Source: Verrucomicrobiia bacterium (GTDB lineage: Bacteria; Verrucomicrobiota; Verrucomicrobiia; Palsa-1439). Taken from it: a DNA stretch of 64,000 bases. The position numbers and the translations under genes are program-made. The notes beneath the pieces were generated by a model that was not told the origin of the DNA, searched no databases, and was given only the letters and a program-made list of their open reading frames with translations. How positions within the stretch are numbered: the first letter of the stretch is position 1; each line of letters starts with the position of its first letter. Location of the stretch: contig JBEKUF010000002.1 in assembly GCA_049515295.1 (NCBI GenBank), positions 5,230-69,229 of the forward strand. Reading direction: 5' to 3'. Of this stretch, positions 4,914-34,477 are shown piece by piece.

Positions 4914-5411
4914 TTACAGAGTTGTCGTAGGCGACTTGCTTATCAACGGGCCGCAATCCTTCAGAGCTTTGAAGAGTCTGACGCTCGCCGACATCGCGTC
5001 GGCTGCGTTCATCTCAAAACCGAGCCAATGCCATGTCTCGCCGTCGCAACTCGCGACCTCGAGACTCTTTCTACTGATACTCTTATCCTTTCCATCATCA
5101 ACTGCGTAGTCATCGACATGCTCGGCAACATCTCGCATTTTCTTGAGGTGTGGCAAGGCAGCATCAAAAGTTCTCAACGCGGCGCGCATGTTCGGTCCAA
5201 TCGATGGCACTTTGGCAGCAAGCTCCCCTGCCCTGCGTAACCTTGTAAGCGCTACAACCAAAAAATGAAAATCACTCCACTTCCGAAGGATGAACTTGGC
5301 GTCTTCTGGTTCAATGGAGTTGAGGCGACGACACTGCAAATCAATAGTCCACAAAGCCTGATTCGCCAACCGCCTCGCGCGCTCGTAAGTGGCTGCGCAG
5401 TCTGGTTTCAT
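4914..5411 (-). CDS. hypothetical protein, possible HEPN-like (Rx4H motif MRDVAEH)
   Basis: 165-aa ORF in lower-GC islet; balanced composition; R-x4-H motif at residues ~93-98; no other recognisable motif. Confidence 0.4.
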   Translation of the reverse strand: MKPDCAATYERARRLANQALWTIDLQCRRLNSIEPEDAKFILRKWSDFHFLVVALTRLRRAGELAAKVPSIGPNMRAALRTFDAALPHLKKMRDVAEHVDDYAVDDGKDKSISRKSLEVASCDGETWHWLGFEMNAADAMSASVRLFKALKDCGPLISKSPTTTL

Positions 5412-5489
5412 TTTTTACCTGACGTCCAAGCTCAATGGCCGCGAACCGCGAACGCTTTCAGGGTTAGCTGAGACGGACAGTTGAGAGTT

Positions 5490-5912
5490 TCATTCGTAGT
5501 AAAGGGAGATACGTTTGTCGCCAGATTTTCTGTACTTGCCGCGGAGTGTCGCATCGTCAGTCTTGTACGGTATTTTGCTCGTAATTCCGAGGTCCCTAAG
5601 CGACGACCTGATCTGCCGCACATCCGTTTCGTCGGTGGCGTCGTAAGTATACACACAAATGACATGTTTGGAGGAATCCGTGGAGTTTGGGTTTGGCTTG
5701 GCGGTGGAAACTTTGGCGGCACTCCCCAGTTTGCCTTCTTCGACGGCCAGCTTGATCTTCTGCCATACTTCATCCACTGCGTCCGATGGCACGAATATCA
5801 ACCACTTGCCGCCGCGGTCAGTGTGCTCTGGATAGGAACCAAGCTTTCTCTTAGCGAAAAGCCAATGCCCACGCTTGTCATTCGATGGCTTACTATCCCG
5901 CTGTGTCTTCAT
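5490..5912 (-). CDS. hypothetical protein (possibly DUF1917/eIF4E-like fold family)
   Basis: 140-aa ORF; HWLF...GKWLIFVPSDAVDEVWQKIKLAVEEGKLG pattern recalls DUF1917. The plus-strand ORF covering the same span is low-complexity junk. Confidence 0.4.
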   Translation of the reverse strand: MKTQRDSKPSNDKRGHWLFAKRKLGSYPEHTDRGGKWLIFVPSDAVDEVWQKIKLAVEEGKLGSAAKVSTAKPNPNSTDSSKHVICVYTYDATDETDVRQIRSSLRDLGITSKIPYKTDDATLRGKYRKSGDKRISLYYE

Positions 5913-5975
5913 CCGGTGCTCTGTAATAAAGTTGAACCACCACTGGCCGATCTGGATGTTCGCGCTTCTAGGCGA

Positions 5976-6407
5976 CTACGCCTCCTCGAACTCGGTGCGT
6001 AGGCCGCGCTGCTGAAGCGCCAACTGGATGTGCTCCTTCTCGATATCGGCCATACCTGCAAGCTTGCAACCAAGCTCTCTCAGTCCTTTGCATGTGGCTT
6101 CCATCTCCGGGTCCCGCAGCATCTCTTCAGATGACAGCCAAGCGCTTGGGGAAACAACTACTCCAACACGAGGCTGCCCGTGCGTCTCAAAAACCGTATC
6201 CAAGAAAGCGAGAACATCCTTAGCAGTCAACGCCTCCGGGAGCTTGGGAACCGCCTCCGCGTGAAGGGCCACGTCTGCCCCAAGGTCCATGGCTATCAAC
6301 ATCTGGACACCGATGCCGCCGCTGAACTGAAACGGACGAAAACCCTGGCCCACCGCGTACCAGTCTTTCGGCTTGATGGGACTTGGTGGATTCTTACTCA
6401 TGGGCAC
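5976..6407 (-). CDS. hypothetical protein
   Basis: 143-aa ORF co-directional with islet genes, 63-bp spacing to upstream gene; no recognised domain. Confidence 0.35.
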   Translation of the reverse strand: MPMSKNPPSPIKPKDWYAVGQGFRPFQFSGGIGVQMLIAMDLGADVALHAEAVPKLPEALTAKDVLAFLDTVFETHGQPRVGVVVSPSAWLSSEEMLRDPEMEATCKGLRELGCKLAGMADIEKEHIQLALQQRGLRTEFEEA

Positions 6408-6494
6408 GCTTTCGTTTCGCCTAACGGCGGAGTTGAGGGACTGATGCGCCGGGCAGCGAGTCGCCGATCCGGCCCACTGGCATGGATAGGCCTC

Positions 6495-6830
6495 TCATTT
6501 CCCTTGCTTGCGCATCTGCTGCTTGACGCGCTCAATGATGCGCCGCCGCTCCTCGGGCGGCAATTGATGCGGCGGTGTGGCGGCGCTGCCTTGAACAGAC
6601 AGAAGGGTGGGCTCTCCCGATGCGTCCCTGCCGATGATGTAACCAGGATCACCCGCTATAACCAAGACTTTGATCTTGGAAGCGCACTTGGGGCACACCA
6701 CAAATTCGGTCTTTAAGGGCGGAGTCATGGGCGCTGTGCCTCCACAGTTGCACTGCAACTGAAAGGTGTGCCCCTCTTTCAGAGCATCGCCCGCAACAAA
6801 CGCGTAAAGGTCATAATCATTCTCAGGCAT
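6495..6830 (-). CDS. hypothetical zinc-ribbon protein (C-x-C ... C-x2-C)
   Basis: Start at MPENDYDLY; four Cys arranged CNCGG-x19-CPKC; basic C-terminal tail. Confidence 0.35.
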   Translation of the reverse strand: MPENDYDLYAFVAGDALKEGHTFQLQCNCGGTAPMTPPLKTEFVVCPKCASKIKVLVIAGDPGYIIGRDASGEPTLLSVQGSAATPPHQLPPEERRRIIERVKQQMRKQGK

Positions 6831-7091
6831 TGTTCCTCCTTCCCCCGAATAATAGTGATGGGACAAAAGCAGCGGCAAGAGACAAATCGTAAGGCTGCTT
6901 CGTCCGCGTGGGAAGCATAGGCCGGGATCGCTGATACGTCAATTTGGTTTGCGGCGAACGGCGTGGTCGGGAGACCCACGCTGAGCAGAGCGGTGCGAAA
7001 CCCTGCGGGCTTCATGCGCCACAATTACGGAAGCGGGGCACCGGTCCGAACGCGGGCTGAAGCCCGCGGCTACATCGCGCAACCTCGCGGC

Positions 7092-7499
7092 CTAGCTCTT
7101 TCCAAGCAAAGATGTCAGCGATACAAGAACCCGAGACTCTGTGAACATGAAAGCCTGCTGGCCACTTGCATCCGAGGTCGAAAGCTCCGCCATAACGCCA
7201 GCAATATCTGCTTTGATAGTGTTCATCATCCCCACGTAGTCTACTTGATCTGCCCGCCGTATCATCCGATAAATCCGCGTATACTCTGGCTCTCCCTGCC
7301 AAACGCCAAGAAGGCCGTTGAAAATAGTCGCTCCTGACTCCAGATACTGTAGTCGGTCAAGGAAACCTCTAATCGCATGATGATCCCATATCGCTTCAGG
7401 TATGTAAAAATCAAGTTGTACTCCCTCATAGTCATCCTGGTCCATGCTGCAAGTGACGGCCTGACCCGCAGGCGACTTAGCGGTCCGTGTCACATTCAT
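7092..7499 (-). CDS. hypothetical protein
   Basis: 135-aa ORF in islet; no recognised motif. Confidence 0.35.
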   Translation of the reverse strand: MNVTRTAKSPAGQAVTCSMDQDDYEGVQLDFYIPEAIWDHHAIRGFLDRLQYLESGATIFNGLLGVWQGEPEYTRIYRMIRRADQVDYVGMMNTIKADIAGVMAELSTSDASGQQAFMFTESRVLVSLTSLLGKS

Positions 7500-7643
7500 G
7501 CTTTATTCTCCGAGCCAAAGTCCGAGCTCAACAACCGCCGCTGACGACCGGGTTGAACGCGAAAGGGACGTTCGAATTGCCCCACCGCACGGAGCGCAAT
7601 GAGTAGTGACGGTTCGCTGGTGCGCACTTGTTAGGCGTATCGT

Positions 7644-7901
7644 TCACGACTCACCGCCCTCCACCAACCACCTAAACATGTCGCGATAGATACTCAGAAA
7701 ATCGTCGAGATTAAAGTACGTCTTGAAATGCTCCGCAAGGAATTTTGGGTCATTCCGCATTGCCGCGCCGAAGAAGGCGAACGGAATGGAAACCACGCCC
7801 CACAGGGCACCGAGCAAAAAGAACGGAACCCAGAACAAGCTGTAGAGCACGAATTTGAAAGGAAACACTGCCAACCGGATGATGAAGAAGATCGGCTCCA
7901 T
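7644..7901 (-). CDS. small two-helix membrane protein
   Basis: MEPIFFIIRLAVFPFKFVLYSLFWVPFFLLGALWGVVSIPFAFFGAA: two hydrophobic helices followed by a charged tail. Confidence 0.35.
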   Translation of the reverse strand: MEPIFFIIRLAVFPFKFVLYSLFWVPFFLLGALWGVVSIPFAFFGAAMRNDPKFLAEHFKTYFNLDDFLSIYRDMFRWLVEGGES

Positions 7902-8246
7902 ACTTGTTGCGTGGTTCGACACGCCTAACATCTGTTAGGGGCCCTGACGGCAGGAAACAACGCGCAACAATGGCGTCCATTTCCGCTGGTGTCTTGAGCG
8001 CCTGCTTGTTCGTACGAATTTTATCCTCAACACACTAGACAATTTCATTGAAGCTGCCAAGCCCAAAATCCTCGACCGGACACGCCTTTTGGCTTCAGAA
8101 TATTCACTGGCGTTGGTCGCAGTGGGAGACCGGCGCCGAACAACAGCGGCGGGCTGGGCCAGCCCGCCCTACCAACGACAAGCGGACGCGGCGCAGCGCG
8201 ACCCTCCAAGACGGACGCCACGTGAGGGCACGCGGCCTACAACGGC

Positions 8247-9833: not shown

Positions 9834-9903
9834 AACTCCTTTCCGCCTTTGTGTGTTGGCTGAGAATCCTGAGTCTGCTGCCGCGGGCGCGGCCCGTCGC
9901 GCA

Positions 9904-20770: not shown

Positions 20771-21508
20771 ATGATACTTCCGAAAGTCCTCAGCTTCCTC
20801 CGCGGCGAGCTCACGAGGAAAACCATGCTGTTCGTCCTGCTCCCGTTGATCTTTATCTCATGCTTCGGAATTCTGGGTCTGGCTGTCTGGTTGTACCCGG
20901 AGCCTTACGATTGGCGCTACACTTCCATCTCCAAATTGCTGTACCCGCGAAACAATCCGCAGTTCCATTACGTTGCCTCCATCAGCCTCGCTGTTTCGGG
21001 CGTGTTGATGCTCCCTTTCGCTGGCTACATCCGCCGACGATTGCGCGGCGCTTATCCCAAGGCGGCAACCGTCGGAGCCGTCGTGTTCTTCGGAGGGTGC
21101 CTGTGCCTCACCCTGGCCGGTTTGGTCGCCTCGCACCCGGCACACGGAACTCCGCGTCTTCCCAAGCTGCATGAAATACTGGCGCGCACCTCAGTCATCA
21201 GCCTCGGGTTGGGGATGGTCGTGTTTAGCGCATGCGGAACGAAGGGATATTTCCGGGCAGCACCGGGCAACGTGCTTCATCGACGCGGCCTCCTGGTCTC
21301 GTGGAACTTGCTCACGCTGCCCGTAATCTTGATCACCGTGACGTGGCTGGTAATCCGCGTATTCATGAAGCGGTCGGGCCCGGCCCTTCACACCATCGTA
21401 ACCTCCGCTGCCTGGAATGTGGGATTCTGGGAATGGCCCGGGTCAGTCGTCGTGTTCGCGTTCCTCGTGTGCTCCGTGTTGTTCCTGCCCGAACACGATT
21501 CGACCTGA
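20771..21508 (+). CDS. polytopic membrane protein, hypothetical
   Basis: Six hydrophobic segments predicted by eye; no catalytic motif. Confidence 0.5.
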   Translation: MILPKVLSFLRGELTRKTMLFVLLPLIFISCFGILGLAVWLYPEPYDWRYTSISKLLYPRNNPQFHYVASISLAVSGVLMLPFAGYIRRRLRGAYPKAATVGAVVFFGGCLCLTLAGLVASHPAHGTPRLPKLHEILARTSVISLGLGMVVFSACGTKGYFRAAPGNVLHRRGLLVSWNLLTLPVILITVTWLVIRVFMKRSGPALHTIVTSAAWNVGFWEWPGSVVVFAFLVCSVLFLPEHDST

Positions 21509-24354: not shown

Positions 24355-24836
24355 AATCTGATGTCATGGAACGTTTGCTACTGGACCGCGCCTTGGGGCG
24401 TCTCGATCCCGACGTCGATGCGCTGCTGGCCGATTATCTGGCCAACGACGCAGCCGCAGCGACACAGGCCCGGGAGTTGCAGGATGTGGTTCATCTGGCC
24501 ACCGGAGCCGTTCGTCAACCGGTGCTCGCGGTCGAGCCGCCCAATCAAATCCACCGGCTCGTCTGGCGTCATCGCGCCGAACGAGCCCTGGCACTCGCCG
24601 CCTCGTTTGTGATCGGCGTGGCCATTACCGCCGTCGCGCTACGCGCCAACCTCCGGCGCGAGGACAACACGGTCTCACGCGCGCCATCGATCCAAAACGC
24701 GTCGATGCGGTCGCCACGCTTGGACGCCCTCGTCAAGACCAAGATCGAGTCCCTCCCCTTCTGGTCGAACCAACGGCTGTACCTGCTGGCGTCGGCGTCC
24801 ACCGTCGGCGCTGACGCAAAGGAGATGGTGAAATGA
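24351..24836 (+). CDS. anti-sigma factor (single-pass membrane)
   Basis: Overlaps sigma stop by ATGA; N-terminal anti-sigma helix region, one TM (ALALAASFVIGVAITAVAL), periplasmic tail. Confidence 0.6.
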   Translation: MKSDVMERLLLDRALGRLDPDVDALLADYLANDAAAATQARELQDVVHLATGAVRQPVLAVEPPNQIHRLVWRHRAERALALAASFVIGVAITAVALRANLRREDNTVSRAPSIQNASMRSPRLDALVKTKIESLPFWSNQRLYLLASASTVGADAKEMVK

Positions 24837-26278
24837 ATATGGGCAAATGGTTCTCACAACGATTCCTGATGGCAGTCTCCGTCCTTCTCGCGCTCTGCGC
24901 CGGCTGCGACCCGACGGATTGGGTCTGTTGGGCGCCGGACGGCGAGCACGCGTTCGTGCGAGGAGCCGACGACAACACCTTCCTGATCGACCGCACCGGC
25001 AAGATCGTTGGCCAAGCAACCGATGCGCGCGCCTGGCTTCCGGACTCGCGGCGAGTGATTGCCGTCCACGCGGTGAAACCCACCAGTTGGGATGAATACG
25101 CCCGGTTGCTCGGCCCCGACCGCGCCGCGAAGACGACGAATGCCGCCGCCAGCATGGTGCAGGTGCTGCAGGCGTATCACGGTGATTGGCCCAAGTTCGG
25201 CGAATCGGCCGAGTACAAGAAATGGGAGAACGACGTGGTTGGGCATACGTACAAAGCGGAGTGGCTGACGCGGGCCGTCGTCCTGTATCTACAGCAAACC
25301 AACCCCAGGATTCTCGTCCCCGTTGTCGATACCAATTCCTTCTCCATAACAGATCTCGTCCCCGACATATACGAACTCAATATCCACAACGTCCTGCCGT
25401 CTGACCCGTCAGCCGAGAGGTTACTGGCCCGGTTCCCGGACGAGATCCTGTCGGTGTTCCCCTCGCCGAGCGGACAAACTCTCGCGTTCGCCGTGGCAGA
25501 ACCCGATCACCCGGCCCTCTACCTCATCCTGCAAGCCACCAACAGTTCTCCCGAAAAGGTCGATGATGGTGTGACCGAAGCGGCCTGGTCGACGGATGGC
25601 CAAAACCTCGTATACGCCAAAACCACGGTTCCCTACTACCTGCTTCAGAACAGCATGCAACTCGGAACCATCACCACCCGCCGCATTTGCGGGACCAATG
25701 GACAAGTGCTGGCGGCGTTCGAGGGCTCCAAGGACCTTGCCGGAGTAATCCTGGGACAATCGGATTCCGTTCGTTCCACATTCGTGGCCTGTCTCCCCGA
25801 CGGTCGAATTCTCTTCGCGGCGGCCCCCATTCGTCTGCCGGCGCTCTCCTCCGACGAGCCAAGCCACCTGACCCTGTTTGTCATCCGACCCGGTCCCACG
25901 CAAACTCTGGAGTCGATCGTGCGCCCCGCAGAGATCTCGCGACTTCCGAACCGGGTGGACCGCTTTGCGCTGAGCCCTGACAAAAAGCGGGCGTCCATTG
26001 TCGATCAACAGGGGAACGTGAGTGTCCTGTCTCTGGACACCGGAGAATTGCTGGCGATCCAACCGACGGCCGTCTATTCCAATTCCGACAAATTCACGCA
26101 ACTCATCCCGACCTGGCGAACCACCAACGAAGTCACGTGCCTCGTCCCGATCGGCGACCCTTCGGGTAGCACCACACGCGTCGAGGTTGTCCTGGCAAAC
26201 CTAAATGGTCAGAGAACCGCGATCAGCCTGTCCTGGTCGAACACGATGGTGAAGGGATTACTACTCCCGACTCAGTGA
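24833..26278 (+). CDS. lipoprotein, beta-propeller-like
   Basis: Lipobox LLALCAGC; repeated W/D-containing beta-strand blocks; ATGA overlap with anti-sigma gene suggests one operon. Confidence 0.55.
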   Translation: MNMGKWFSQRFLMAVSVLLALCAGCDPTDWVCWAPDGEHAFVRGADDNTFLIDRTGKIVGQATDARAWLPDSRRVIAVHAVKPTSWDEYARLLGPDRAAKTTNAAASMVQVLQAYHGDWPKFGESAEYKKWENDVVGHTYKAEWLTRAVVLYLQQTNPRILVPVVDTNSFSITDLVPDIYELNIHNVLPSDPSAERLLARFPDEILSVFPSPSGQTLAFAVAEPDHPALYLILQATNSSPEKVDDGVTEAAWSTDGQNLVYAKTTVPYYLLQNSMQLGTITTRRICGTNGQVLAAFEGSKDLAGVILGQSDSVRSTFVACLPDGRILFAAAPIRLPALSSDEPSHLTLFVIRPGPTQTLESIVRPAEISRLPNRVDRFALSPDKKRASIVDQQGNVSVLSLDTGELLAIQPTAVYSNSDKFTQLIPTWRTTNEVTCLVPIGDPSGSTTRVEVVLANLNGQRTAISLSWSNTMVKGLLLPTQ

Positions 26279-28673: not shown

Positions 28674-29534
28674 GTGAAGCTCCTGGTCGTCAATGCCGAC
28701 GATTTCGGGCTCGACCCGGCCGTCAACGCGGCGATTGCCAAAGCCCACAAGAACGGCCTGTTGACCAGCGCCAGTCTGCTGATCGCCGCGCCGCACGCCG
28801 CCGCGGCCATCGAGTTCGCCCGGTCCCACCCGAACCTCGGCGTCGGCCTTCATCTTTGCCTCGTGGACGGTCGCGCTGCGGCGCTGCCGGACAAAATCCC
28901 GTCGTTGGCAACCGCAGACGGCCAATTGCCGCCGAGCCCGTTCGCTCTGAGCGCACGGTTCTTATCCCATCCGCGATTGGACGCGGACATCGAAACCGAA
29001 CTTCGGACGCAAATCAGCCAGTTCATGGCCACCGGCCTCCGTCCGACCCACTTCGACACTCACCAACACACGCACCTTCACCCGCGCGTGTTGAAGATTG
29101 TTATGCGTCTGGCGCGCGAACATGGCGTCAACTTCATCCGCGCCCCGGTCGAGCCTCTGTTGCCGTCGATCCGATGCAACCGGCAACGGCTGCCGCGCAA
29201 ACTCGTCCGCTGGGCGATTTTTGCCGCGCTCGGCTCGCGGACGAAACGGCAATTGCAACGGGAAAACTTCCGCACCGTCGACCGCGCCGTCGGCGTGCTT
29301 GACCCCGGCCATCTGCGAGAAGAATTTCTCGCGTCGTACCTGCGCCGATTGCCGGACGGACTTACCGAAATGTTCTTCCATCCCGCCGACCGCCCGGCCG
29401 ATCCCCTTGTCGAGATGCAGCGCGGCTACGAACACGCCGCCGAATTGCGCGCCCTCTACAGTCCACGGTTGCGCCAGCTCATCAACGACTCCGGCATCCG
29501 CCTCACCAATTTCCGGGAATTGGCTTTATCCTGA
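28674..29534 (+). CDS. YdjC/ChbG-family carbohydrate deacetylase (HpnK-like)
   Basis: MKLLVVNADDFGL N-terminus and HxH/DTHQH motifs of YdjC-like family. Confidence 0.75.
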   Translation: MKLLVVNADDFGLDPAVNAAIAKAHKNGLLTSASLLIAAPHAAAAIEFARSHPNLGVGLHLCLVDGRAAALPDKIPSLATADGQLPPSPFALSARFLSHPRLDADIETELRTQISQFMATGLRPTHFDTHQHTHLHPRVLKIVMRLAREHGVNFIRAPVEPLLPSIRCNRQRLPRKLVRWAIFAALGSRTKRQLQRENFRTVDRAVGVLDPGHLREEFLASYLRRLPDGLTEMFFHPADRPADPLVEMQRGYEHAAELRALYSPRLRQLINDSGIRLTNFRELALS

Positions 29535-29667
29535 GTCCGTCGAAGGCTTTATCCCGAGTTTGACGAAGGGTTTGTCCTGAGTCCGTCGAAGGCTTTATCC
29601 CGAGTTTGACGAAGGGCTTGTCCTGAGTCCGTCGAAGGCTTTATCCCGAGTTTGACGAAGGGTTCGA
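29530..29667. repeat. 46-bp tandem direct repeat x3, each unit an internal 23-bp half-repeat; overlaps stop codon of upstream gene
   Basis: Units start at 29530, 29576, 29622: cctgagtccgtcgaaggctttatcccgagtttgacgaagggtttgt with 1-2 substitutions. Confidence 0.85.
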
Positions 29668-29779
29668 CTCCCTGGCTTCGTTTCCCGAGAACCGAGCCCC
29701 CGTTTCGGCGTTTCAAGGCCCGAACGAACCCAATAATTGGCTTCGTTTGGCAGAATTACATATATGGGGCCTCCCCCTC

Positions 29780-30165
29780 TGCTGTAGCCCCGCTTGATAA
29801 ACGCGGAACCATCGTTTTCCTCTGTAGGGCGCTCTATGGGCGCCGGCCGTATCTGCATTTTCGCTGGCTGTAGCCACGGCGCTTGACCGCCTCAGGCGCG
29901 GCTCTGTCGCCGTGCCCCATTCCTCGTATTTCAAAGAACTGCCCGACCATACCACCATTCCCACCCCGTGTCCAGCAAAATTATCGATTCAAGATAATTC
30001 GATCCCCTCGCCCCGCCTTCGCCGTTGTAGGCCGCGTCCCCCGACGCGGCGCTTCCCGATCTGGATGGCTCACTTCCCGGCGAGCCGCATCTGCGCCCTC
30101 CCCCCTTCTGCAGCCCGCCCACGCCAGACTTGCTTGCAAAATGAGCCGCCTGTAGACTCGCGTCT
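29780..30165. repeat. array of about 6 REP-like elements (CTGTAG head followed by GC-rich imperfect palindrome)
   Basis: ctgtagccccgc, ctgtagggcgctctatgggcgcc, ctgtagccacggcgc...cgccgtgcc, ttgtaggccgcgtcccccgacgcgg, ctgcagcccgccc, ctgtagactcgcg at about 40-160 bp spacing. Confidence 0.4.
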
Positions 30166-30246
30166 CAGGTTACGGGTGAGCGATTGCTCGAATTCGAACA
30201 GATAGCTCCCCAGGGCATGCGGACAGCAGAATGAGGTGGAAAGAAA

Positions 30247-32505
30247 ATGAACAGCCCGAGCCCATCGCCTACGCCACGTCCGAGCACAAGTGCTGAGATT
30301 GCTGAGTGGATCAAGTACCACCACAATAATCACCCACATGGGGTAACGTTTCTGGTTGGCGCAGGGTTTTCCGCTTCTGCCGGGATTCCGACCGCCAGCC
30401 AGATGGTCAAGACGCTACGAGCGCATCCACTTTTGAAGAACGCTGGGGCTGTGCCTCATGATCAAAGCGAGTATGCGTTTCTCATGGCAAAACTCCCGCC
30501 AGATGAGCGGGTTAGTGTCATCCGTAATGCCATCCGTCAGGCCGAAGACCCCAAGACGAATCGCCTAAAGATCAACTGGGCGCACCTGCTTTTGGCCACG
30601 TTGGTGGATGCGGGATACATCAATCAGATTCTAACGACGAATTTCGATCCATTGATTGTCGAGGCTTTGGCCATGACCGGCCAACCAGTCCGTGCATTCG
30701 ACCTGACCGCCAGTGCCGGCTTTCAGGCGGGGGCTTTGGAGCCGGGGTCGGTCGTGTACCTGCATGGTCAGGCTCACGGATTGTGGCTGTCCAATTCACC
30801 GGACGAAATGGACCGTGTGCGCCACGATCTGAACTCCGTATACCAGGACGCATTGCGTGACAGCATTTTGATCGTTGTCGGCTACAGCGGTGCTTGCGAT
30901 CCAGTACTGCAGGAACTGGCGCAGAGATTCCGCCAGTTCCGTCACTACTTGTACTGGGTTCATCACGATGGCAGTACCGACCCGGGCGACGAGGCCATGA
31001 GCCTTCTCAAAGAGCCTTACCGAGAAGCCTATTTGATCAAGGGCTTGGATGCGGACGCTTTCATGCGGGAACTCGTGCTGGAAGGTCTGAAGCTGGAATT
31101 GCCTCTCATCGTCAAGAACCCGCTGGACTTTGCCTCTGGGAACTTGGGGCGTGTGATGCCATTCCCTCCCGAACCCGGTGGACCCGTCGGCCAGGACCCG
31201 GTCGTAAGCGCACGCAAATTGGTGACCGACGCCCTGGCAGGTCTATCGAACCCGAAAACGGCGGCGCCACCAGCTTCATCACAAGCCGCTACACTGCAAG
31301 CAGTGCTTCCCATTGCCGTTTCAATGGCTGCTGCCACCAAGTCGCGCGCCAAACTGGAGGAACTGCGTCCCGCGGTTGAACAGAGCGCCAATAGCGCCGT
31401 GCAGAAAGAATTCGGGCAGGCATACCTGATTCTTGCCTCGGACGAGATTGAAAGCGGGAACTACGCCCAAGCGCTCGATGATGTTGGAATCGCCGAAAAA
31501 CTGGGAGCGTCCGAGAAACAGTGGATCGCCACGATGTGGGGCGACGTGCTGACCGCTCAGGCCCAAGCCAAGAGTGGGGCGGAGGCCGATGCGTTGTTCC
31601 AGCTGGCCGGGGAAAAGTACGCGCAGGCCTTGCGAATCAAGCCGGACATGCACGAGGCGCTCAACAACTGGGGCGTCGCGTTGAGCGATCAGGCCAGGAC
31701 CAAGACCGGGGCGGAGGCCGATGCGTTGTTTCAACTGGCCGGGGAGAAGTACGAGCAGGCCTTGCGGATCAAGCCGGACATGCACGACGCGCTCTACAAC
31801 TGGGGCAACGCGTTGAGCGATCAGGCCAAGACCAAGACCGGGGCGGAGGCCGATGCGTTGTTCAAACTGGCCGGCGAGAAGTGCGAGCAGGCCCTGCGGA
31901 TCAAGCCGGACAATCACGAGGCGCTCTACAACTGGGGCAACGCGTTGAGCGATCAGGCCAGAACCAGGAGCGGGTCAGAGGCCGATGCGCTGTTCAAACT
32001 GGCCGGGGAGAAGTACGAGCAGGCCTTGCGGATCAAGCCAGACTATCATCAGGCGCTCTGCAATTGGGGCAACGCGTTGGCCGATCAGGCCAAGACCAGG
32101 ACCGGGGCCGAGGCCGATGCGTTGTTCAAACTGGCCGCCGAAAAGTACGAGCAGGCCTTGCGGATCAAGCCGAACAAGGACGAGGCGCTCAACAACTGGG
32201 GCGCCGCCTTGAGCGATCAGGCCCAAGCCAAGAGCGGGGCGGAGGCCGATGCGTTGTTCAAGTTGGCCGGGGAGAAGTACGAGCAGGCCTTGCGAATCAA
32301 ACCGGACGATCGCGAGGCAATGTTCAACATGGCATGTCTATTCGGATTGAAGAACAGTGCGGCGAGCGCGGTTCCTTGGTTGCGTAAGTGGGCTGAGGGC
32401 AATCCAAAGGCAACGCGCGCCAAGATTGCGGCAGATCCCGATTTCGACCGCATACGAGAAGATCCTCTTCTTAGGGCATTCGTCGAAAGTTTACCCAATC
32501 CGTGA
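30247..32505 (+). CDS. SIR2-like (SIR2_2/DHS-like NAD-binding) domain fused to six 44-aa TPR-like repeats; candidate NADase defence protein
   Basis: N-terminus: FLVGAGFSASAGIP, LTTNFDPLIVEAL, VVYLHGQ, LIVVGYSGACDPVL (SIR2_2 motif series with the Asn and His positions). C-terminus: six repeats GAEADALFxLAGEKYEQALRIKPDxHEALxNWGNALSDQAxTKT. Confidence 0.8.
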   Translation: MNSPSPSPTPRPSTSAEIAEWIKYHHNNHPHGVTFLVGAGFSASAGIPTASQMVKTLRAHPLLKNAGAVPHDQSEYAFLMAKLPPDERVSVIRNAIRQAEDPKTNRLKINWAHLLLATLVDAGYINQILTTNFDPLIVEALAMTGQPVRAFDLTASAGFQAGALEPGSVVYLHGQAHGLWLSNSPDEMDRVRHDLNSVYQDALRDSILIVVGYSGACDPVLQELAQRFRQFRHYLYWVHHDGSTDPGDEAMSLLKEPYREAYLIKGLDADAFMRELVLEGLKLELPLIVKNPLDFASGNLGRVMPFPPEPGGPVGQDPVVSARKLVTDALAGLSNPKTAAPPASSQAATLQAVLPIAVSMAAATKSRAKLEELRPAVEQSANSAVQKEFGQAYLILASDEIESGNYAQALDDVGIAEKLGASEKQWIATMWGDVLTAQAQAKSGAEADALFQLAGEKYAQALRIKPDMHEALNNWGVALSDQARTKTGAEADALFQLAGEKYEQALRIKPDMHDALYNWGNALSDQAKTKTGAEADALFKLAGEKCEQALRIKPDNHEALYNWGNALSDQARTRSGSEADALFKLAGEKYEQALRIKPDYHQALCNWGNALADQAKTRTGAEADALFKLAAEKYEQALRIKPNKDEALNNWGAALSDQAQAKSGAEADALFKLAGEKYEQALRIKPDDREAMFNMACLFGLKNSAASAVPWLRKWAEGNPKATRAKIAADPDFDRIREDPLLRAFVESLPNP
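31575..32366 (+). repeat. intragenic 132-bp (44-codon) tandem repeat x6, about 90% nucleotide identity
   Basis: ggggcggaggccgatgcgttgtt...ttgagcgatcaggcc unit recurs at 31575, 31707, 31839, 31971, 32103, 32235. Confidence 0.85.
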
Positions 32506-32689
32506 AGCGTTCCCGCAAATTCGCGTCCCAACACGCATACTAGGCTCACATCTCACCACAGCCTCATCGCATCCCCGTCACACCCGAGCGGATTTTACCC
32601 CGACTCTTTACCCCGAATCCTTTTCGGGGCATGGTCGGGGTCGGGGCACCCAGCCTTCGCCTGCCCGCCATAGCTTTAGCGACGACGGG

Positions 32690-32885
32690 TGCCCTTCGCC
32701 CGTCCTGAGCGAAGTCGAAGGGCGGTGACTATTCGCGTCGATTCGCGTCCATTCGCGGTTGCCTCAAGTCAGAGCCGCCGCCTCTCCGCCTGTCCCGAGT
32801 TCGACGAGGGGCTTCCGCTCTCCGCCTCCTGAATTCTGGATTCTGGCTCCTGACTTCGCTCCTCCGCCTCTCCCGAGGTCAATTC
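32690..32885. repeat. repeat-rich spacer: copies of the cc(t)gag...tcgaagg motif family, 10-bp x3 tandem (attcgcgtcg), ccgcctctcc direct repeats
   Basis: gtcctgagcgaagtcgaagggcg (32702-32724), attcgcgtcg/attcgcgtcc/attcgcggtt (32731-32760), gtcccgagttcgacgaggggcttcc, ccgcctctcccgaggtc. Confidence 0.45.
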
Positions 32886-34336
32886 CCGCCAGAAGCTCCC
32901 CGCGATAGCGCGCGGTCCAGATTGATCTGCGCATCCATGTAATCGGGCTTGATTCGTAGCGCCTGACGGTACTGCTCAACCGCTTCCGACGCCTTTCCCG
33001 CCTGCAGCAAGGCCGTCCCCAGATAGTTGTGCGTCTCAGCAAAATCAGGTTTGAGCTGCACTGCCCGTTGGAAATGCGCAATCGCAGGAGAAATCTTCCC
33101 CGCCTTCCCCAGCGCCAACCCGAGGTTGTACTGCGCCATCCATGCCTCGGGGTTCTTCGTCACGGTATCCGACCAGAGAGTTTCACTCGTCGCGTAAACA
33201 CCGGCCCGCGCCCACGTGGCGATGCCCAACACAACCACCACCACCGCGCCCGCCAGCACGCCCACAATCCGGCCCCGGCCGCCGATGCCTCGGCAGACCA
33301 CCGCTCCCGCCGCCACAACCACCGCGATGACCCCGATGATCGAGTAATACTGCCAGTGGTCCGCCACCAGCGAGTAGTCATAAAACCCCTGATCGAAAAA
33401 TCCGAGCACCGGGAACAACGTCACCACAAAATATCCCGCGCCGAATAGCAACGGCTTCCCCCACGTCTTGCGTTTCCACCAGAAGAGCGCCAGACACGCC
33501 GCCAGAAGCAATCCGGGAAACCACGAGACCCAATGAGACGCATCGACGTTCCACTTCGGGTAGATCACGGACAAATTCACCGGCCACAGGACCTTGCCCA
33601 GGTAAAACCAAACCACCCAACCCGCCGCTACCAGCTTGGAGAGGAATCCTTCGGCCCGGAACACGGTTCCTCTCAACACCCGATGATACTGAAACCAAAC
33701 AGTCACCAACCCGAACAGGAGGGAAAGCGCAAAGAATGGTACGCTGCGCCGCCAGTCCCTCCATCGCAGTCGGCCATGCAACCACCACACGCACCCCAAC
33801 AGCGCGAACGGCAACATGACCACACCGGTCTTGCTGAACAACGCCAACAGAAACGCCCCCAACGACAATGCGTACCAGCGCCACCGGCCGTCCGCGTCGA
33901 ACTTCAAGTACAAGAGTATCGCCACGGCGTAGAACATCATGGACAACGTGTTCTTCTGTTCGCTGATCCAGCCCGCCGTGGCCACGTTCACCGGGTGAAT
34001 CGCGAACACGAGCGCCGCCACCCACCCGCCCGGGATGTTCAGTCGTCGCAGAATCAGCCAGACAAGCACGGCATTGACGGCCTGCAGAAGAATGTTGAGC
34101 ACATGATAACCCGTCGCCTGGTCACCCCACATCCGCCATTCCAGCCACCATAAACTGCCCGTCAGCGGATAGTAATCCGCCGCACCCGCCCCGGACCAGA
34201 ACAGTCGAATCCCGTTGTCGGCCCGGACCATCCCGTTTTCCGTGATCAACGGGTAATCATCGAACACAAACCCGCCGCGCACCACGGGCAGATAGACCGC
34301 GAAGGTGATGAGGACAATCAGAGCCGCCCTGGCCAT
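32879..34336 (-). CDS. polytopic membrane protein with C-terminal TPR repeats (PMT/ArnT-like GT-C fold plus TPR)
   Basis: About 10 TM segments with DxYP motif near N-terminus (FDDYPLI); C-terminal TPRs (AQYNLGLALGKAGK...AIAHFQRAVQLKPD...YRQALRIKPDY). Confidence 0.65.
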   Translation of the reverse strand: MARAALIVLITFAVYLPVVRGGFVFDDYPLITENGMVRADNGIRLFWSGAGAADYYPLTGSLWWLEWRMWGDQATGYHVLNILLQAVNAVLVWLILRRLNIPGGWVAALVFAIHPVNVATAGWISEQKNTLSMMFYAVAILLYLKFDADGRWRWYALSLGAFLLALFSKTGVVMLPFALLGCVWWLHGRLRWRDWRRSVPFFALSLLFGLVTVWFQYHRVLRGTVFRAEGFLSKLVAAGWVVWFYLGKVLWPVNLSVIYPKWNVDASHWVSWFPGLLLAACLALFWWKRKTWGKPLLFGAGYFVVTLFPVLGFFDQGFYDYSLVADHWQYYSIIGVIAVVVAAGAVVCRGIGGRGRIVGVLAGAVVVVVLGIATWARAGVYATSETLWSDTVTKNPEAWMAQYNLGLALGKAGKISPAIAHFQRAVQLKPDFAETHNYLGTALLQAGKASEAVEQYRQALRIKPDYMDAQINLDRALSRGASGGN

Positions 34337-34477
34337 GAACACGCCGCCGGACATCTCTGGGCACGACTGGTGTTGGTTTGCCGGGACGGTTTGCAAGCAA
34401 CTGGTTTATACGGCGGCCCGATTCGCCACCGCGAGTGAAAAACGTCAGCCATCGCGCGCCGCGCCACGCAACTTCAG

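What the first reader, a model, noticed from the sequence alone, without database searches (positions are those of the whole stretch)
30247..32505. SIR2-like NADase domain fused to a six-repeat TPR-like array: candidate single-gene antiphage system
The translation gives the full SIR2_2 (DHS-like NAD-binding) motif series in order: FLVGAGFSASAGIP (Gly loop), LTTNFDPLI (Asn at the catalytic position used by ThsA/DSR-type SIR2 NADases), VVYLHGQ (catalytic His) and LIVVGYSGACDPVL. After a linker of about 120 aa the C-terminal 300 aa is six near-identical 44-aa helical repeats (GAEADALFxLAGEKYEQALRIKPDxHEALxNWGNALSDQ) with TPR-like W-LG-A-F-A-P spacing. There is no NTPase/STAND, SLOG, HerA or Ago partner. 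An NAD-degrading SIR2 effector joined to a repeat sensor is the design logic of DSR2 and SIR2-Avs defence proteins, but this compact SIR2-TPR two-domain layout does not match a named system that I know. The gene is isolated between repeat arrays and REP-like elements, flanked by housekeeping envelope genes; such variable hotspots are typical sites for defence genes.
Basis: partly seen in the sequence, partly recalled or inferred. Interest (0 to 1): 0.8.

Follow-up and report, generated by a model that had tools for sequence, protein, structure and literature searches.

The report
Stand-alone SIR2 NADase fused to TPR array
A strain-specific gene encodes an NAD-cleaving SIR2 enzyme joined to a six-repeat protein-binding array; it belongs to a large, untested family that is probably a one-protein phage-infection sensor, though its genomic neighbours do not confirm that.

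Summary
ORF 30247-32505 (+) encodes 752 aa: an N-terminal SIR2_2 domain, a helical middle region, six 44-aa TOM20-like TPR repeats and a C-terminal TPR cap. The AlphaFold2 model has pLDDT 92.

N132 and H173 align with the mutagenesis-proven catalytic dyad N142/H186 of the SPARSA Sir2 NADase. Both are invariant in 90 aligned homologues. There is no Zn module.

The protein is not unique. The SIR2 profile finds 1015 cluster representatives at E<=1e-30 and 330 relatives among 185,579 species genomes, across many phyla and one archaeon. Repeat number ranges from 0 to 19.

No partner gene is conserved. No PADLOC model matches beyond the SIR2 domain.

The gene is accessory. A fully syntenic relative (77-95% aa identity in flanking genes) lacks it; the same site holds other cargo or is empty in three relatives.

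The defence-island prediction is not met: nearest neighbours in about 60 loci are mostly diverse housekeeping genes with few defence hits.

Best reading (about 0.5): a DSR2-like single-protein sensor-effector that depletes NAD+ on ligand binding. This is a new variant of a known kind, untested experimentally.

The parts
30247..32505 (+). Whole SIR2-TPR gene (752 aa plus stop)
   Evidence: ORF list. AF2 model has mean pLDDT 92.2 and pTM 0.79.
30233..30239 (+). Shine-Dalgarno-like GAGGTGG, 7 nt before the ATG
   Evidence: Read directly from the sequence.
30334..31101 (+). SIR2_2 (SIRim-type) Rossmann domain, residues about 30-285, with no Zn-binding module
30358..30372 (+). Glycine loop GAGFS (residues 38-42), NAD binding
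   Evidence: G38, G40 and S42 are invariant in 28 homologues.
30634..30648 (+). TTNFD motif; N132 is the catalytic Asn
   Evidence: N132, F133 and D134 are invariant in 90 sequences. N132 aligns with GsSir2 N142, which is required for NADase activity (PMC10781750).
30760..30771 (+). LHGQ motif; H173 is the catalytic His
   Evidence: L172, H173 and G174 are invariant. H173 aligns with GsSir2 H186.
30880..30900 (+). GYSGACD motif (residues 212-218), adenine-ribose side of the NAD pocket
   Evidence: G212, Y213, G215 and D218 are invariant. The pocket role follows from general knowledge of sirtuin folds.
31102..31536 (+).
   Evidence: AF2 helices 287-301, 318-334, 346-363, 367-379, 383-402, 406-418, pLDDT 74-95. 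Conserved prolines.
31537..32328 (+). Six 44-aa TOM20-like TPR repeats (residues 431-694), the putative ligand-binding superhelix
32329..32502 (+). C-terminal capping helices (TPR end-of-group domain)
   Evidence: NCBIfam NF047558, 42.3 bits against cutoff 32, residues 691-744.
29535..32878 (.). Variable hotspot segment between the YdjC stop and the PMT_2-TPR stop; holds the SIR2-TPR gene here
   Evidence: Relatives L088, L089 and L090 keep both flanks (77-95% aa identity). The segment between them holds 1.7 kb of other cargo, 63 nt, and 1.84 kb of other cargo respectively. GC is 0.56-0.58 in the SIR2 part against 0.62-0.65 in the flanks.
29522..29664 (+). 23/46-nt tandem DNA array at the left border of the hotspot
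   Evidence: TRF score 266, 96% matches. One unit is present after YdjC in relative L088.
32795..32811 (+). Diverged single copy of the array unit at the right border
   Evidence: Pattern search with 2 mismatches; there are no other copies in the window.

Best explanation
The gene encodes a cytoplasmic, self-contained sensor-effector.

Shown:
- The N-terminal domain is a SIR2_2/SIRim-type NAD+-binding Rossmann fold.
- It carries the Asn-His dyad of the pAgo-associated (SPARSA) NADase and lacks the Zn module that canonical deacylases need.
- The C-terminal part is a TPR superhelix whose repeat number varies widely between homologues.
- One helix face of the repeats is hypervariable.
- The gene is accessory and sits in a variable hotspot.

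Inferred:
- The TPR groove binds a specific protein or peptide, most likely of phage origin.
- Binding relieves autoinhibition and/or drives SIR2-SIR2 oligomerisation, as in DSR2, SPARSA, Avs5, KomC and FAM118B.
- The SIR2 domain then hydrolyses NAD+, and NAD+ depletion halts the infected cell (abortive infection).
For: Enzyme:
- Pfam SIR2_2 scores above its cutoff.
- The profile hits SPARSA Sir2 at 2.4e-21 over the whole domain.
- N132 and H173 align with N142 and H186, whose alanine mutants abolish NADase activity (PMC10781750).
- The dyad and NAD-pocket motifs are invariant in 90 homologues.
- There is a single Cys in residues 1-330, so no Zn tetrad. This is the stated hallmark of the immune 'sirim' clade (bioRxiv 10.1101/2024.09.18.613514).

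Sensor:
- Six TPR repeats are modelled as a superhelix.
- Repeat number is 0-19 across homologues.
- In 50 family members, within-protein variability concentrates at repeat positions 38-40, 43, 3, 6/7 and 10, which form one helix face.

Architecture:
- Apart from long TPR/solenoid scaffold proteins (TTC7B, Ctr9), DSR2 (SIR2 plus alpha-solenoid) is the solved structure that aligns over roughly the full length, and the only one that also carries a SIR2 domain.
- DSR2 is activated by a phage tail tube protein binding its solenoid (PMC11850899).

Autonomy and mobility:
- No neighbour is conserved among 584 neighbour ORFs.
- The distribution is patchy across many phyla and one archaeon: 330 of 185,579 species genomes.
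- The gene is present or absent at a hotspot between close relatives.
- GC is lower than in the flanks.

Clade prior: the SIR2_2/sirim clade is 12-fold enriched near defence systems.
Against: - No clear defence-island association. Among 224 nearest (+-2) neighbours of about 60 homologues, PADLOC hits at E<=1e-8 are few and partly generic: one type I MTase, two AbiL-type ATPases, a few MADS-like components, and kinase and MotB hits.
- Pfam shows mostly unrelated housekeeping genes among those neighbours, such as GatB, translation-factor GTPases (GTP_EFTU domain), IGPS, RF-1 and DNA pol III. No family occurs in more than 3 loci.
- Seven loci with precomputed annotation show the same picture.
- Other cargo at this hotspot is not defence-related.
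- The same TPR module is also fused to a ParA/MinD-like ATPase and to unannotated domains, not to classic immune effectors.
- No experiment exists for any member, and no paper was found.
- The census is crude: greedy ORF calls, MAG contigs, and only family counts returned.
Confidence: 0.5

Rival explanations
1. A non-immune NAD+-consuming switch. The TPR array senses an endogenous protein or peptide, such as a chaperone tail, a stress signal or a misfolded protein. The SIR2 domain then lowers NAD+ or makes an ADP-ribose-derived signal to impose dormancy or adjust metabolism.
Against: The gene is accessory and differs between near-identical genomic backgrounds, with a patchy cross-phylum spread. 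That fits poorly with a core physiological switch. Repeat number and surface residues vary strongly, which suggests changing targets.
Confidence: 0.22
2. A protein- or nucleic-acid-modifying sirtuin. The TPR array recruits a substrate, which the SIR2 domain ADP-ribosylates or deacylates (SirTM-like), rather than performing bulk NAD+ hydrolysis.
For: The SIR2 fold supports ADP-ribosyl transfer in some bacterial families (PMC9503650; PMC12700824). TPR arrays are classic substrate-recruitment modules, as in the OGT and SPY hits.
Against: There is no Zn module for acyl-lysine binding. There is no linked macrodomain and no conserved neighbour. The nearest solved relative by sequence is a pure NADase.
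Confidence: 0.15
3. Part of the adjacent envelope glycosylation cluster (GT87-GT2-YdjC / PMT_2-TPR), for example a regulator of those enzymes.
For: Position between glycosyltransferase genes in the window. PMT or PMT_2 genes also lie next to homologues in L168 and L170.
Against: The syntenic relatives L088, L089 and L090 keep the whole glycosylation cluster without this gene. PMT_2 is not among the recurrent neighbour families in 224 neighbours. A 712-nt gap and repeat array separate the gene from YdjC, and the downstream gene is convergent.
Confidence: 0.03
4. A catalytically dead scaffold or decaying gene whose repeats expanded by slippage.
For: A tandem DNA repeat at 86% identity could reflect recent slippage.
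Against: The ORF is intact. All NAD-pocket and catalytic residues are invariant. The fold is confidently predicted. Repeat framework positions are conserved while surface positions vary.
Confidence: 0.03

Closest known systems
DSR2 (defence-associated sirtuin 2, Bacillus subtilis)
   Same: Single polypeptide with an N-terminal SIR2 NADase, a helical middle region and a C-terminal alpha-solenoid repeat sensor. Apart from long TPR/solenoid scaffold proteins, it is the solved structure that aligns over roughly the full length, and the only such hit with a SIR2 domain (Foldseek E about 1e-9, about 920 columns). Likely the same logic: ligand binding to the solenoid switches on NAD+ depletion (PMC11850899).
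   Different: No sequence relationship outside the SIR2 fold (10-12% identity, TM 0.22-0.27). No DSR model appears among the PADLOC hits. The sensor is a regular 44-aa TPR array rather than HEAT-like repeats. The protein is shorter (752 aa against about 1000). Tetramer formation and the ligand are unknown.
SPARSA Sir2-APAZ (GsSir2, PDB 8JKZ/8IN8)
   Same: Closest SIR2 domain by sequence (profile E 2.4e-21 over the whole domain). Best PADLOC hits are Aga_SIR2 models. The catalytic N142/H186 dyad is conserved as N132/H173.
   Different: The C-terminal half is TPR, not APAZ. There is no short pAgo gene nearby, here or in homologues. Activation therefore cannot be guide-RNA or target-DNA dependent.
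PADLOC candidate PDC-S65
   Same: A single-gene candidate with a related SIR2 domain (E 5e-25, profile positions 34-287 of 592).
   Different: Neither the window protein nor ten family members match the C-terminal 300 positions of that model. It is a different C-terminal domain and so a different family.
Avs5 / SIR2-STAND and ThsA (Thoeris)
   Different: No STAND NTPase, no SLOG domain and no TIR partner.
Plant Tom20-type extended TPR (PF06552)
   Different: Bacterial, cytoplasmic, in arrays of up to 19 units and fused to enzymes. No import-receptor role is implied.

Membership tests
SIR2_2 / 'sirim' sirtuin-like NADases (PF13289) | Pfam model matched above the gathering score | tested here: met
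   34.2 bits against cutoff 24.5, residues 127-245.
SIR2_2 / 'sirim' sirtuin-like NADases (PF13289) | Catalytic Asn-His dyad and GAGxS glycine loop in register | tested here: met
   N132 and H173 align with GsSir2 N142 and H186. They are invariant in 90 sequences.
SIR2_2 / 'sirim' sirtuin-like NADases (PF13289) | Absence of the Zn-binding Cys tetrad of canonical sirtuins | tested here: met
   One Cys (C217) in residues 1-330 and none between N132 and H173. The criterion is as stated.
SIR2_2 / 'sirim' sirtuin-like NADases (PF13289) | NAD+ glycohydrolase activity | not testable with these tools
   Needs a biochemical assay.
DSR2 | N-terminal SIR2 plus C-terminal alpha-solenoid in one chain | tested here: met
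   AF2 model. Roughly full-length Foldseek alignment to 8WYE, 8WYD and 8YG1.
DSR2 | Sequence homology to DSR2 (PADLOC or profile hit beyond the SIR2 core) | tested here: not met
   No DSR model appears among the PADLOC hits at E<=1. Structure alignments show 10-12% identity.
DSR2 | Activation by phage tail tube protein; SIR2-centred tetramer | not testable with these tools
   Needs co-expression and cryo-EM or SEC.
SPARSA (short pAgo + Sir2-APAZ) | APAZ domain C-terminal to SIR2 | tested here: not met
   Aga_SIR2 models match only the SIR2 part (residues 71-257). The C-terminal half is TPR.
SPARSA (short pAgo + Sir2-APAZ) | Adjacent short pAgo gene | tested here: not met
   The window neighbours are GT87, GT2, YdjC and PMT_2. 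No neighbour is conserved in 64 loci.
Thoeris ThsA | SLOG/STALD domain and a ThsB TIR partner | tested here: not met
   ThsA model E 0.022 on the N-terminus only. No TIR neighbour.
Avs5 (SIR2-STAND) | STAND NTPase module between effector and sensor | tested here: not met
   No NTPase family in Pfam or NCBIfam. Residues 286-430 are modelled as plain helices.
PADLOC PDC-S65 | Full-length match to the 592- or 503-position models | tested here: not met
   Only profile positions about 30-290 match, for the window protein and for 10 homologues.
Antiphage defence gene (generic genomic criteria) | Enrichment of known defence genes in the neighbourhood of homologues | tested here: inconclusive
   Few PADLOC hits among 224 nearest neighbours, and mostly housekeeping Pfam families (also 15-17, 73-76). 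No clear enrichment was seen. The census is coarse: +-2 genes, MAGs, no matched control.
Antiphage defence gene (generic genomic criteria) | Accessory gene with variable presence between close relatives and patchy phyletic spread | tested here: met
   Absent from syntenic L088, L089 and L090. 330 hits scattered over many phyla in 185,579 species genomes.
TPR (TOM20_plant-like 44-aa variant) | Tandem helix-turn-helix repeats with the W-G-A-F-A-P framework forming a superhelix | tested here: met
   PF06552 105 bits and TPR_11 82 bits. Helix pairs of 15+21 residues per unit. CTPR and OGT are the top Foldseek hits.

The most novel reading that the evidence does not exclude
The family is a widespread pattern-recognition receptor that needs no NTPase. 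A copy-number-variable array of 44-aa TPR units (0-19 per protein), each with its own hypervariable helix face, directly reads phage proteins and switches on a SPARSA-type SIR2 NADase. The same sensor cassette is reused with other N-terminal enzymes (a ParA/MinD-like ATPase and several unannotated domains). That would make it a modular 'TPR-sensor plus swappable effector' immune superfamily that lies mostly outside defence islands and has therefore been missed by guilt-by-association screens.
Probability: 0.3. Interest if true: 0.7.

Novelty: new variant of a known kind. Interest (0 to 1): 0.55.

Why it matters
If members protect against phages, this would add a compact third activation route for SIR2 NADases: direct TPR sensing, besides Argonaute/STAND/signal-driven routes and DSR2's HEAT-like solenoid.

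It would also be an example of an immune gene family that defence-island methods miss, because it inserts singly among housekeeping genes.

The family is large (about 1000 clusters at 50% identity). It is concentrated in poorly studied environmental phyla such as Planctomycetota, Verrucomicrobiota, Acidobacteriota and Chloroflexota.

The regular repeats, with a defined hypervariable face, would make specificity experimentally tractable.

If the family is not immune, it is a widespread NAD+-consuming switch of unknown physiology.

Tried and rejected
- Exact-sequence look-up of the protein: not on record.
- Rfam on the whole window: no hits. tRNA scan: none. No tRNA-linked island was found.
- Promoter and terminator scans around the gene: nothing above shuffle expectation.
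- PDC-S65 membership: rejected, because only the SIR2 core matches.
- Conserved partner gene: all-against-all BLAST of 584 neighbour ORFs found only a response-regulator/kinase cluster in 8 loci. This was rejected as generic.
- Envelope-glycosylation link: suggested by PMT genes beside L168 and L170. Not supported by the 224-neighbour Pfam census or by synteny.
- Phage-borne origin: only 4 distant SIR2 hits (24-30% identity) in IMG/VR.
- Effector-swap test with the TPR half: alternative N-domains exist, but none is a recognised immune effector, so the test is inconclusive. The 0-repeat members of the SIR2 clade mostly still carry divergent TPR or TOM20-like repeats.
- Literature searches for 'PDC-S65', 'SIR2-TPR' and SIR2+TPR+defence terms: no description of this family was found.
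Full report
**1. Observation.**

It has a GAGGTGG Shine-Dalgarno-like element 7 nt upstream of the ATG.

Pfam gives SIR2_2 (PF13289) at 34.2 bits against a cutoff of 24.5, on residues 127-245. It gives TOM20_plant (PF06552) at 105 bits in six stretches and TPR_11 at 82 bits. NCBIfam adds a 'TPR end-of-group' cap at residues 691-744.

Tandem Repeats Finder reports a 132-nt period with 5.8 copies, 86% matches and score 1109 at 31537-32307. At the protein level there are six in-register 44-aa units at residues 431-694. They are 68-86% identical in protein and 79-92% in DNA. The array is very regular, but 'near-identical' overstates it.

An AlphaFold2 model built on 90 homologues is confident: mean pLDDT 92.2, pTM 0.79. 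It shows an alpha/beta domain (residues about 30-285), then an uninterrupted run of helices. Each repeat forms a 15-residue and a 21-residue helix.

**2. The enzyme domain.**

A 28-sequence alignment of the N-terminal 360 residues shows these residues invariant: G38/G40/S42 (GAGxS), N110, T130-N132-F133-D134, D152, L172-H173-G174-Q175, G212-Y213-G215-D218, W237 and D270. In a 90-sequence full-length alignment N132, F133, D134, D152, H173, G174, G212, Y213, G215 and D218 stay invariant.

A profile of the domain hits the Sir2-APAZ protein of the SPARSA system (8JKZ/8IN8) at E 2.4e-21 over chain residues 16-304. That is far ahead of canonical sirtuins (1e-5) and ThsA (3.5e-3).

In that alignment, and in the single-sequence one, N132 and H173 fall on N142 and H186. 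Alanine substitution of either residue abolishes NADase activity in GsSir2 (PMC10781750).

Residues 1-330 hold a single cysteine, with none between the Asn and His motifs. The Zn module that canonical deacylases need is therefore absent. This is the published hallmark of the SIR2_2/'sirim' clade.

**3. The repeat domain.**

Within the window protein, differences among repeats cluster at unit positions 3, 10-13, 38-40 and 43.

Across 50 family members with at least four ungapped repeats, within-protein entropy is highest at positions 38, 43, 3, 7 and 10 (1.2-1.4 bits). It is near zero at the framework positions W1, G2, L5, A9, A17, L20, A24, K27, A31, P36 and N44.

Given the helix boundaries of the model, the variable positions recur every 3-4 residues along the shorter helix, so they lie on one face. 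That is the pattern expected of a ligand-binding surface on a repeat scaffold. This is an inference, and it does not say what the ligand is.

**4. A family, not a singleton.**

A search with residues 1-360 found 270 proteins at E<=1e-5 among the scored candidates. Many are 500-630 aa with PF13289 + PF13414 + PF06552.

An exhaustive HMM search of 1.84 billion cluster representatives gave 1015 hits at E<=1e-30 and 4670 at E<=1e-10.

A scan of one genome per species found 330 confirmed relatives among 185,579 genomes. The phyla include Planctomycetota, Verrucomicrobiota, Acidobacteriota, Chloroflexota, Armatimonadota, Ignavibacteriota and Proteobacteria. Named organisms include Undibacterium, Mesorhizobium helmanticense, Thalassolituus maritimus, Nannocystis punicea and a Methanosarcinaceae archaeon.

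The best hit is only 65% identical. The exact protein is not in the collection.

Repeat number ranges from 0 to 19 in 64 genomic homologues. It ranges from 0 to 12 in the top representatives. Most '0-repeat' members still carry divergent TPR or TOM20-like repeats.

**5. Autonomy.**

In the window the upstream genes are GT87, GT2 and YdjC on the same strand. They are separated from the ORF by 712 nt. The downstream gene is a convergent PMT_2-TPR membrane protein, followed by a DHOD-like gene and a pyruvate:ferredoxin oxidoreductase.

An all-against-all comparison of 584 ORFs within 6 kb of 64 homologues found no conserved neighbour. The largest cluster (8 loci) is two-component-system proteins. 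There is no Ago, HerA, TIR, SLOG or STAND partner.

PADLOC matches are confined to the SIR2 core of Aga_SIR2 and PDC-S65 models, both for the window protein and for ten homologues. The family is therefore not covered by PADLOC v2.0.

**6. Accessory status.**

A metagenome scan with the flanking YdjC protein recovered close relatives from peat metagenomes.

- L090 is collinear with the window over Calx-beta protein, unknown ORF, GT87, GT2, YdjC, PMT_2-TPR, ORF127, DHOD-like and PFOR, at 77-95% aa identity. It has no SIR2-TPR gene. Its 1.84-kb gap holds a glyoxalase-family gene and a weak BNR-like ORF.
- L088 has 1.7 kb with an unannotated ORF.
- L089 has only 63 nt between the two flanking genes.

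Nucleotide homology to the relatives stops at about 29520-29550 and resumes at about 32881. L088 additionally shares two short border pieces (29733-29782 and 32554-32640), so there the cargo differs between conserved borders.

The SIR2 part has GC 0.56-0.58 against 0.62-0.65 in the flanks.

The 23/46-nt tandem array at 29522-29664 sits at the left border. One unit is present in L088. A diverged copy lies at 32795-32811. No other copies occur in the window.

It is a general accessory hotspot, not a defence island.

**7. The defence-island test.**

I took the two nearest ORFs on each side of about 60 homologues (224 proteins) and scanned them.

PADLOC at E<=1e-8 returned:
- one type I methyltransferase;
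- one or two Ser/Thr-kinase (PD-T4-6) hits;
- one PDC-S02 hit;
- a few MADS-like components;
- two AbiL/AriA/PtuA-type ATPases;
- one MotB-like hit;
- a few others.

Pfam showed an assortment of housekeeping families. Examples are GatB, translation-factor GTPases (GTP_EFTU domain), aldehyde dehydrogenase, IGPS, adenylosuccinate synthetase, RF-1, DNA pol III alpha and ABC transporters. No family occurred in more than 3 of 138 or 2 of 86 proteins. A few toxin-antitoxin-type domains appeared (PIN x2, AAA_21 x2, MqsA x1).

Seven loci with precomputed Pfam annotation over +-10 kb show the same picture. The only defence-like item is an AAA_15/DUF4276 pair about 8 kb away in L169.

This census has limits. 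ORF calling was greedy. Most contigs are MAGs from phyla with poorly catalogued defence systems. Only counts per family are returned, and there is no matched control. Within those limits I see no clear enrichment. The gene sits alone in ever-changing contexts.

**8. Other tests.**

The family is essentially absent from viral contigs: 4 distant hits.

A search with the TPR half shows the same 44-aa array and cap fused to other N-terminal domains. These are a ParA/MinD-like P-loop (13 of 116 hits) and at least five unannotated classes. The sensor module is reused, but not with recognised immune effectors.

**9. Mechanism.**

The best-supported reading is a DSR2-like single-chain sensor-effector. 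Apart from long TPR/solenoid scaffold proteins (TTC7B, Ctr9), DSR2 is the solved structure that aligns over roughly the full length, and the only such hit with a SIR2 domain. It works by phage tail-tube protein binding to its C-terminal solenoid, which activates a SIR2 tetramer (PMC11850899). SPARSA likewise activates by tetramerisation (title of PMC11452484). FAM118B, KomC and Avs5 form filaments.

I therefore propose that ligand binding in the TPR groove leads to release of autoinhibition or oligomerisation of SIR2, then NAD+ hydrolysis, then growth arrest.

- Shown: the fold, the catalytic residues, the architecture, the autonomy, the accessory status and the hypervariable sensor face.
- Inferred: NADase activity, the ligand, oligomerisation and an immune role.

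The published 12-fold enrichment of defence systems around the sirim clade as a whole is a prior, not evidence for this sub-family. Confidence is about 0.5. The rivals are listed separately: an endogenous-signal NAD+ switch, a substrate-directed ADP-ribosyltransferase, a link to the glycosylation cluster, and a dead scaffold.

**10. Novelty and verdict.**

No paper in the searchable library describes this family or names a SIR2-TPR system. One sirtuin tree labels SIR2_2 proteins with fused TPR domains. Databases call members 'SIR2 family protein' or 'TPR repeat protein'.

It combines a known effector with a known type of sensor in the manner of DSR2. It differs in three ways: a SPARSA-type SIR2, a distinctive copy-number-variable 44-aa TPR array, and no NTPase. 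That makes it a new variant of a known kind.

It is a sound experimental candidate and a large unexplored family.

Noticed in passing
window 4914-8100: A run of small minus-strand ORFs (165, 140, 143, 127, 135 and 95 aa). GC is 0.52-0.58 against 0.60-0.62 in the flanks. This may be a second accessory islet.
   Followed up: no
window 29522-29664; also 32795-32811 and about 32702-32727; L088 about 9856-9880: A 23/46-nt tandem array lies directly after the YdjC stop codon, and diverged single units lie at the other border of the hotspot. One unit is also present after YdjC in relative L088. There are no other copies in the 64-kb window. It may mark the recombination borders of the hotspot.
   Followed up: partly
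proteins P0161, P0175, P0183, P0204, P0218, P0219 (not in the window): The same 44-aa TOM20-like TPR array is fused to an N-terminal ParA/MinD-like P-loop ATPase. At least five further unannotated N-terminal domain classes also carry this array.
   Followed up: partly
L168 12098-18980; L170 11913-18103; window 32879-34396: PMT or PMT_2 glycosyltransferase genes, some with TPR, lie just downstream of the SIR2-TPR gene in three unrelated loci. The 224-neighbour census did not confirm a general association.
   Followed up: yes
L015 9929-13978; L077 513-3710: Homologues with 19 and 15 copies of the 44-aa repeat (1349 and 1065 aa). They show extreme expansion of the array.
   Followed up: no
P0033, P0039 (Kosmotoga), about 310-317 aa: SIR2-only members of the same clade with no TPR array. 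Whether they have a separate partner gene was not examined.
   Followed up: no
window 24833-26278 (+) and 20771-21508 (+): Two sizeable ORFs (481 and 245 aa) with no Pfam family. The 481-aa one is conserved at 80-87% identity in relatives L090, L091 and L101.
   Followed up: no
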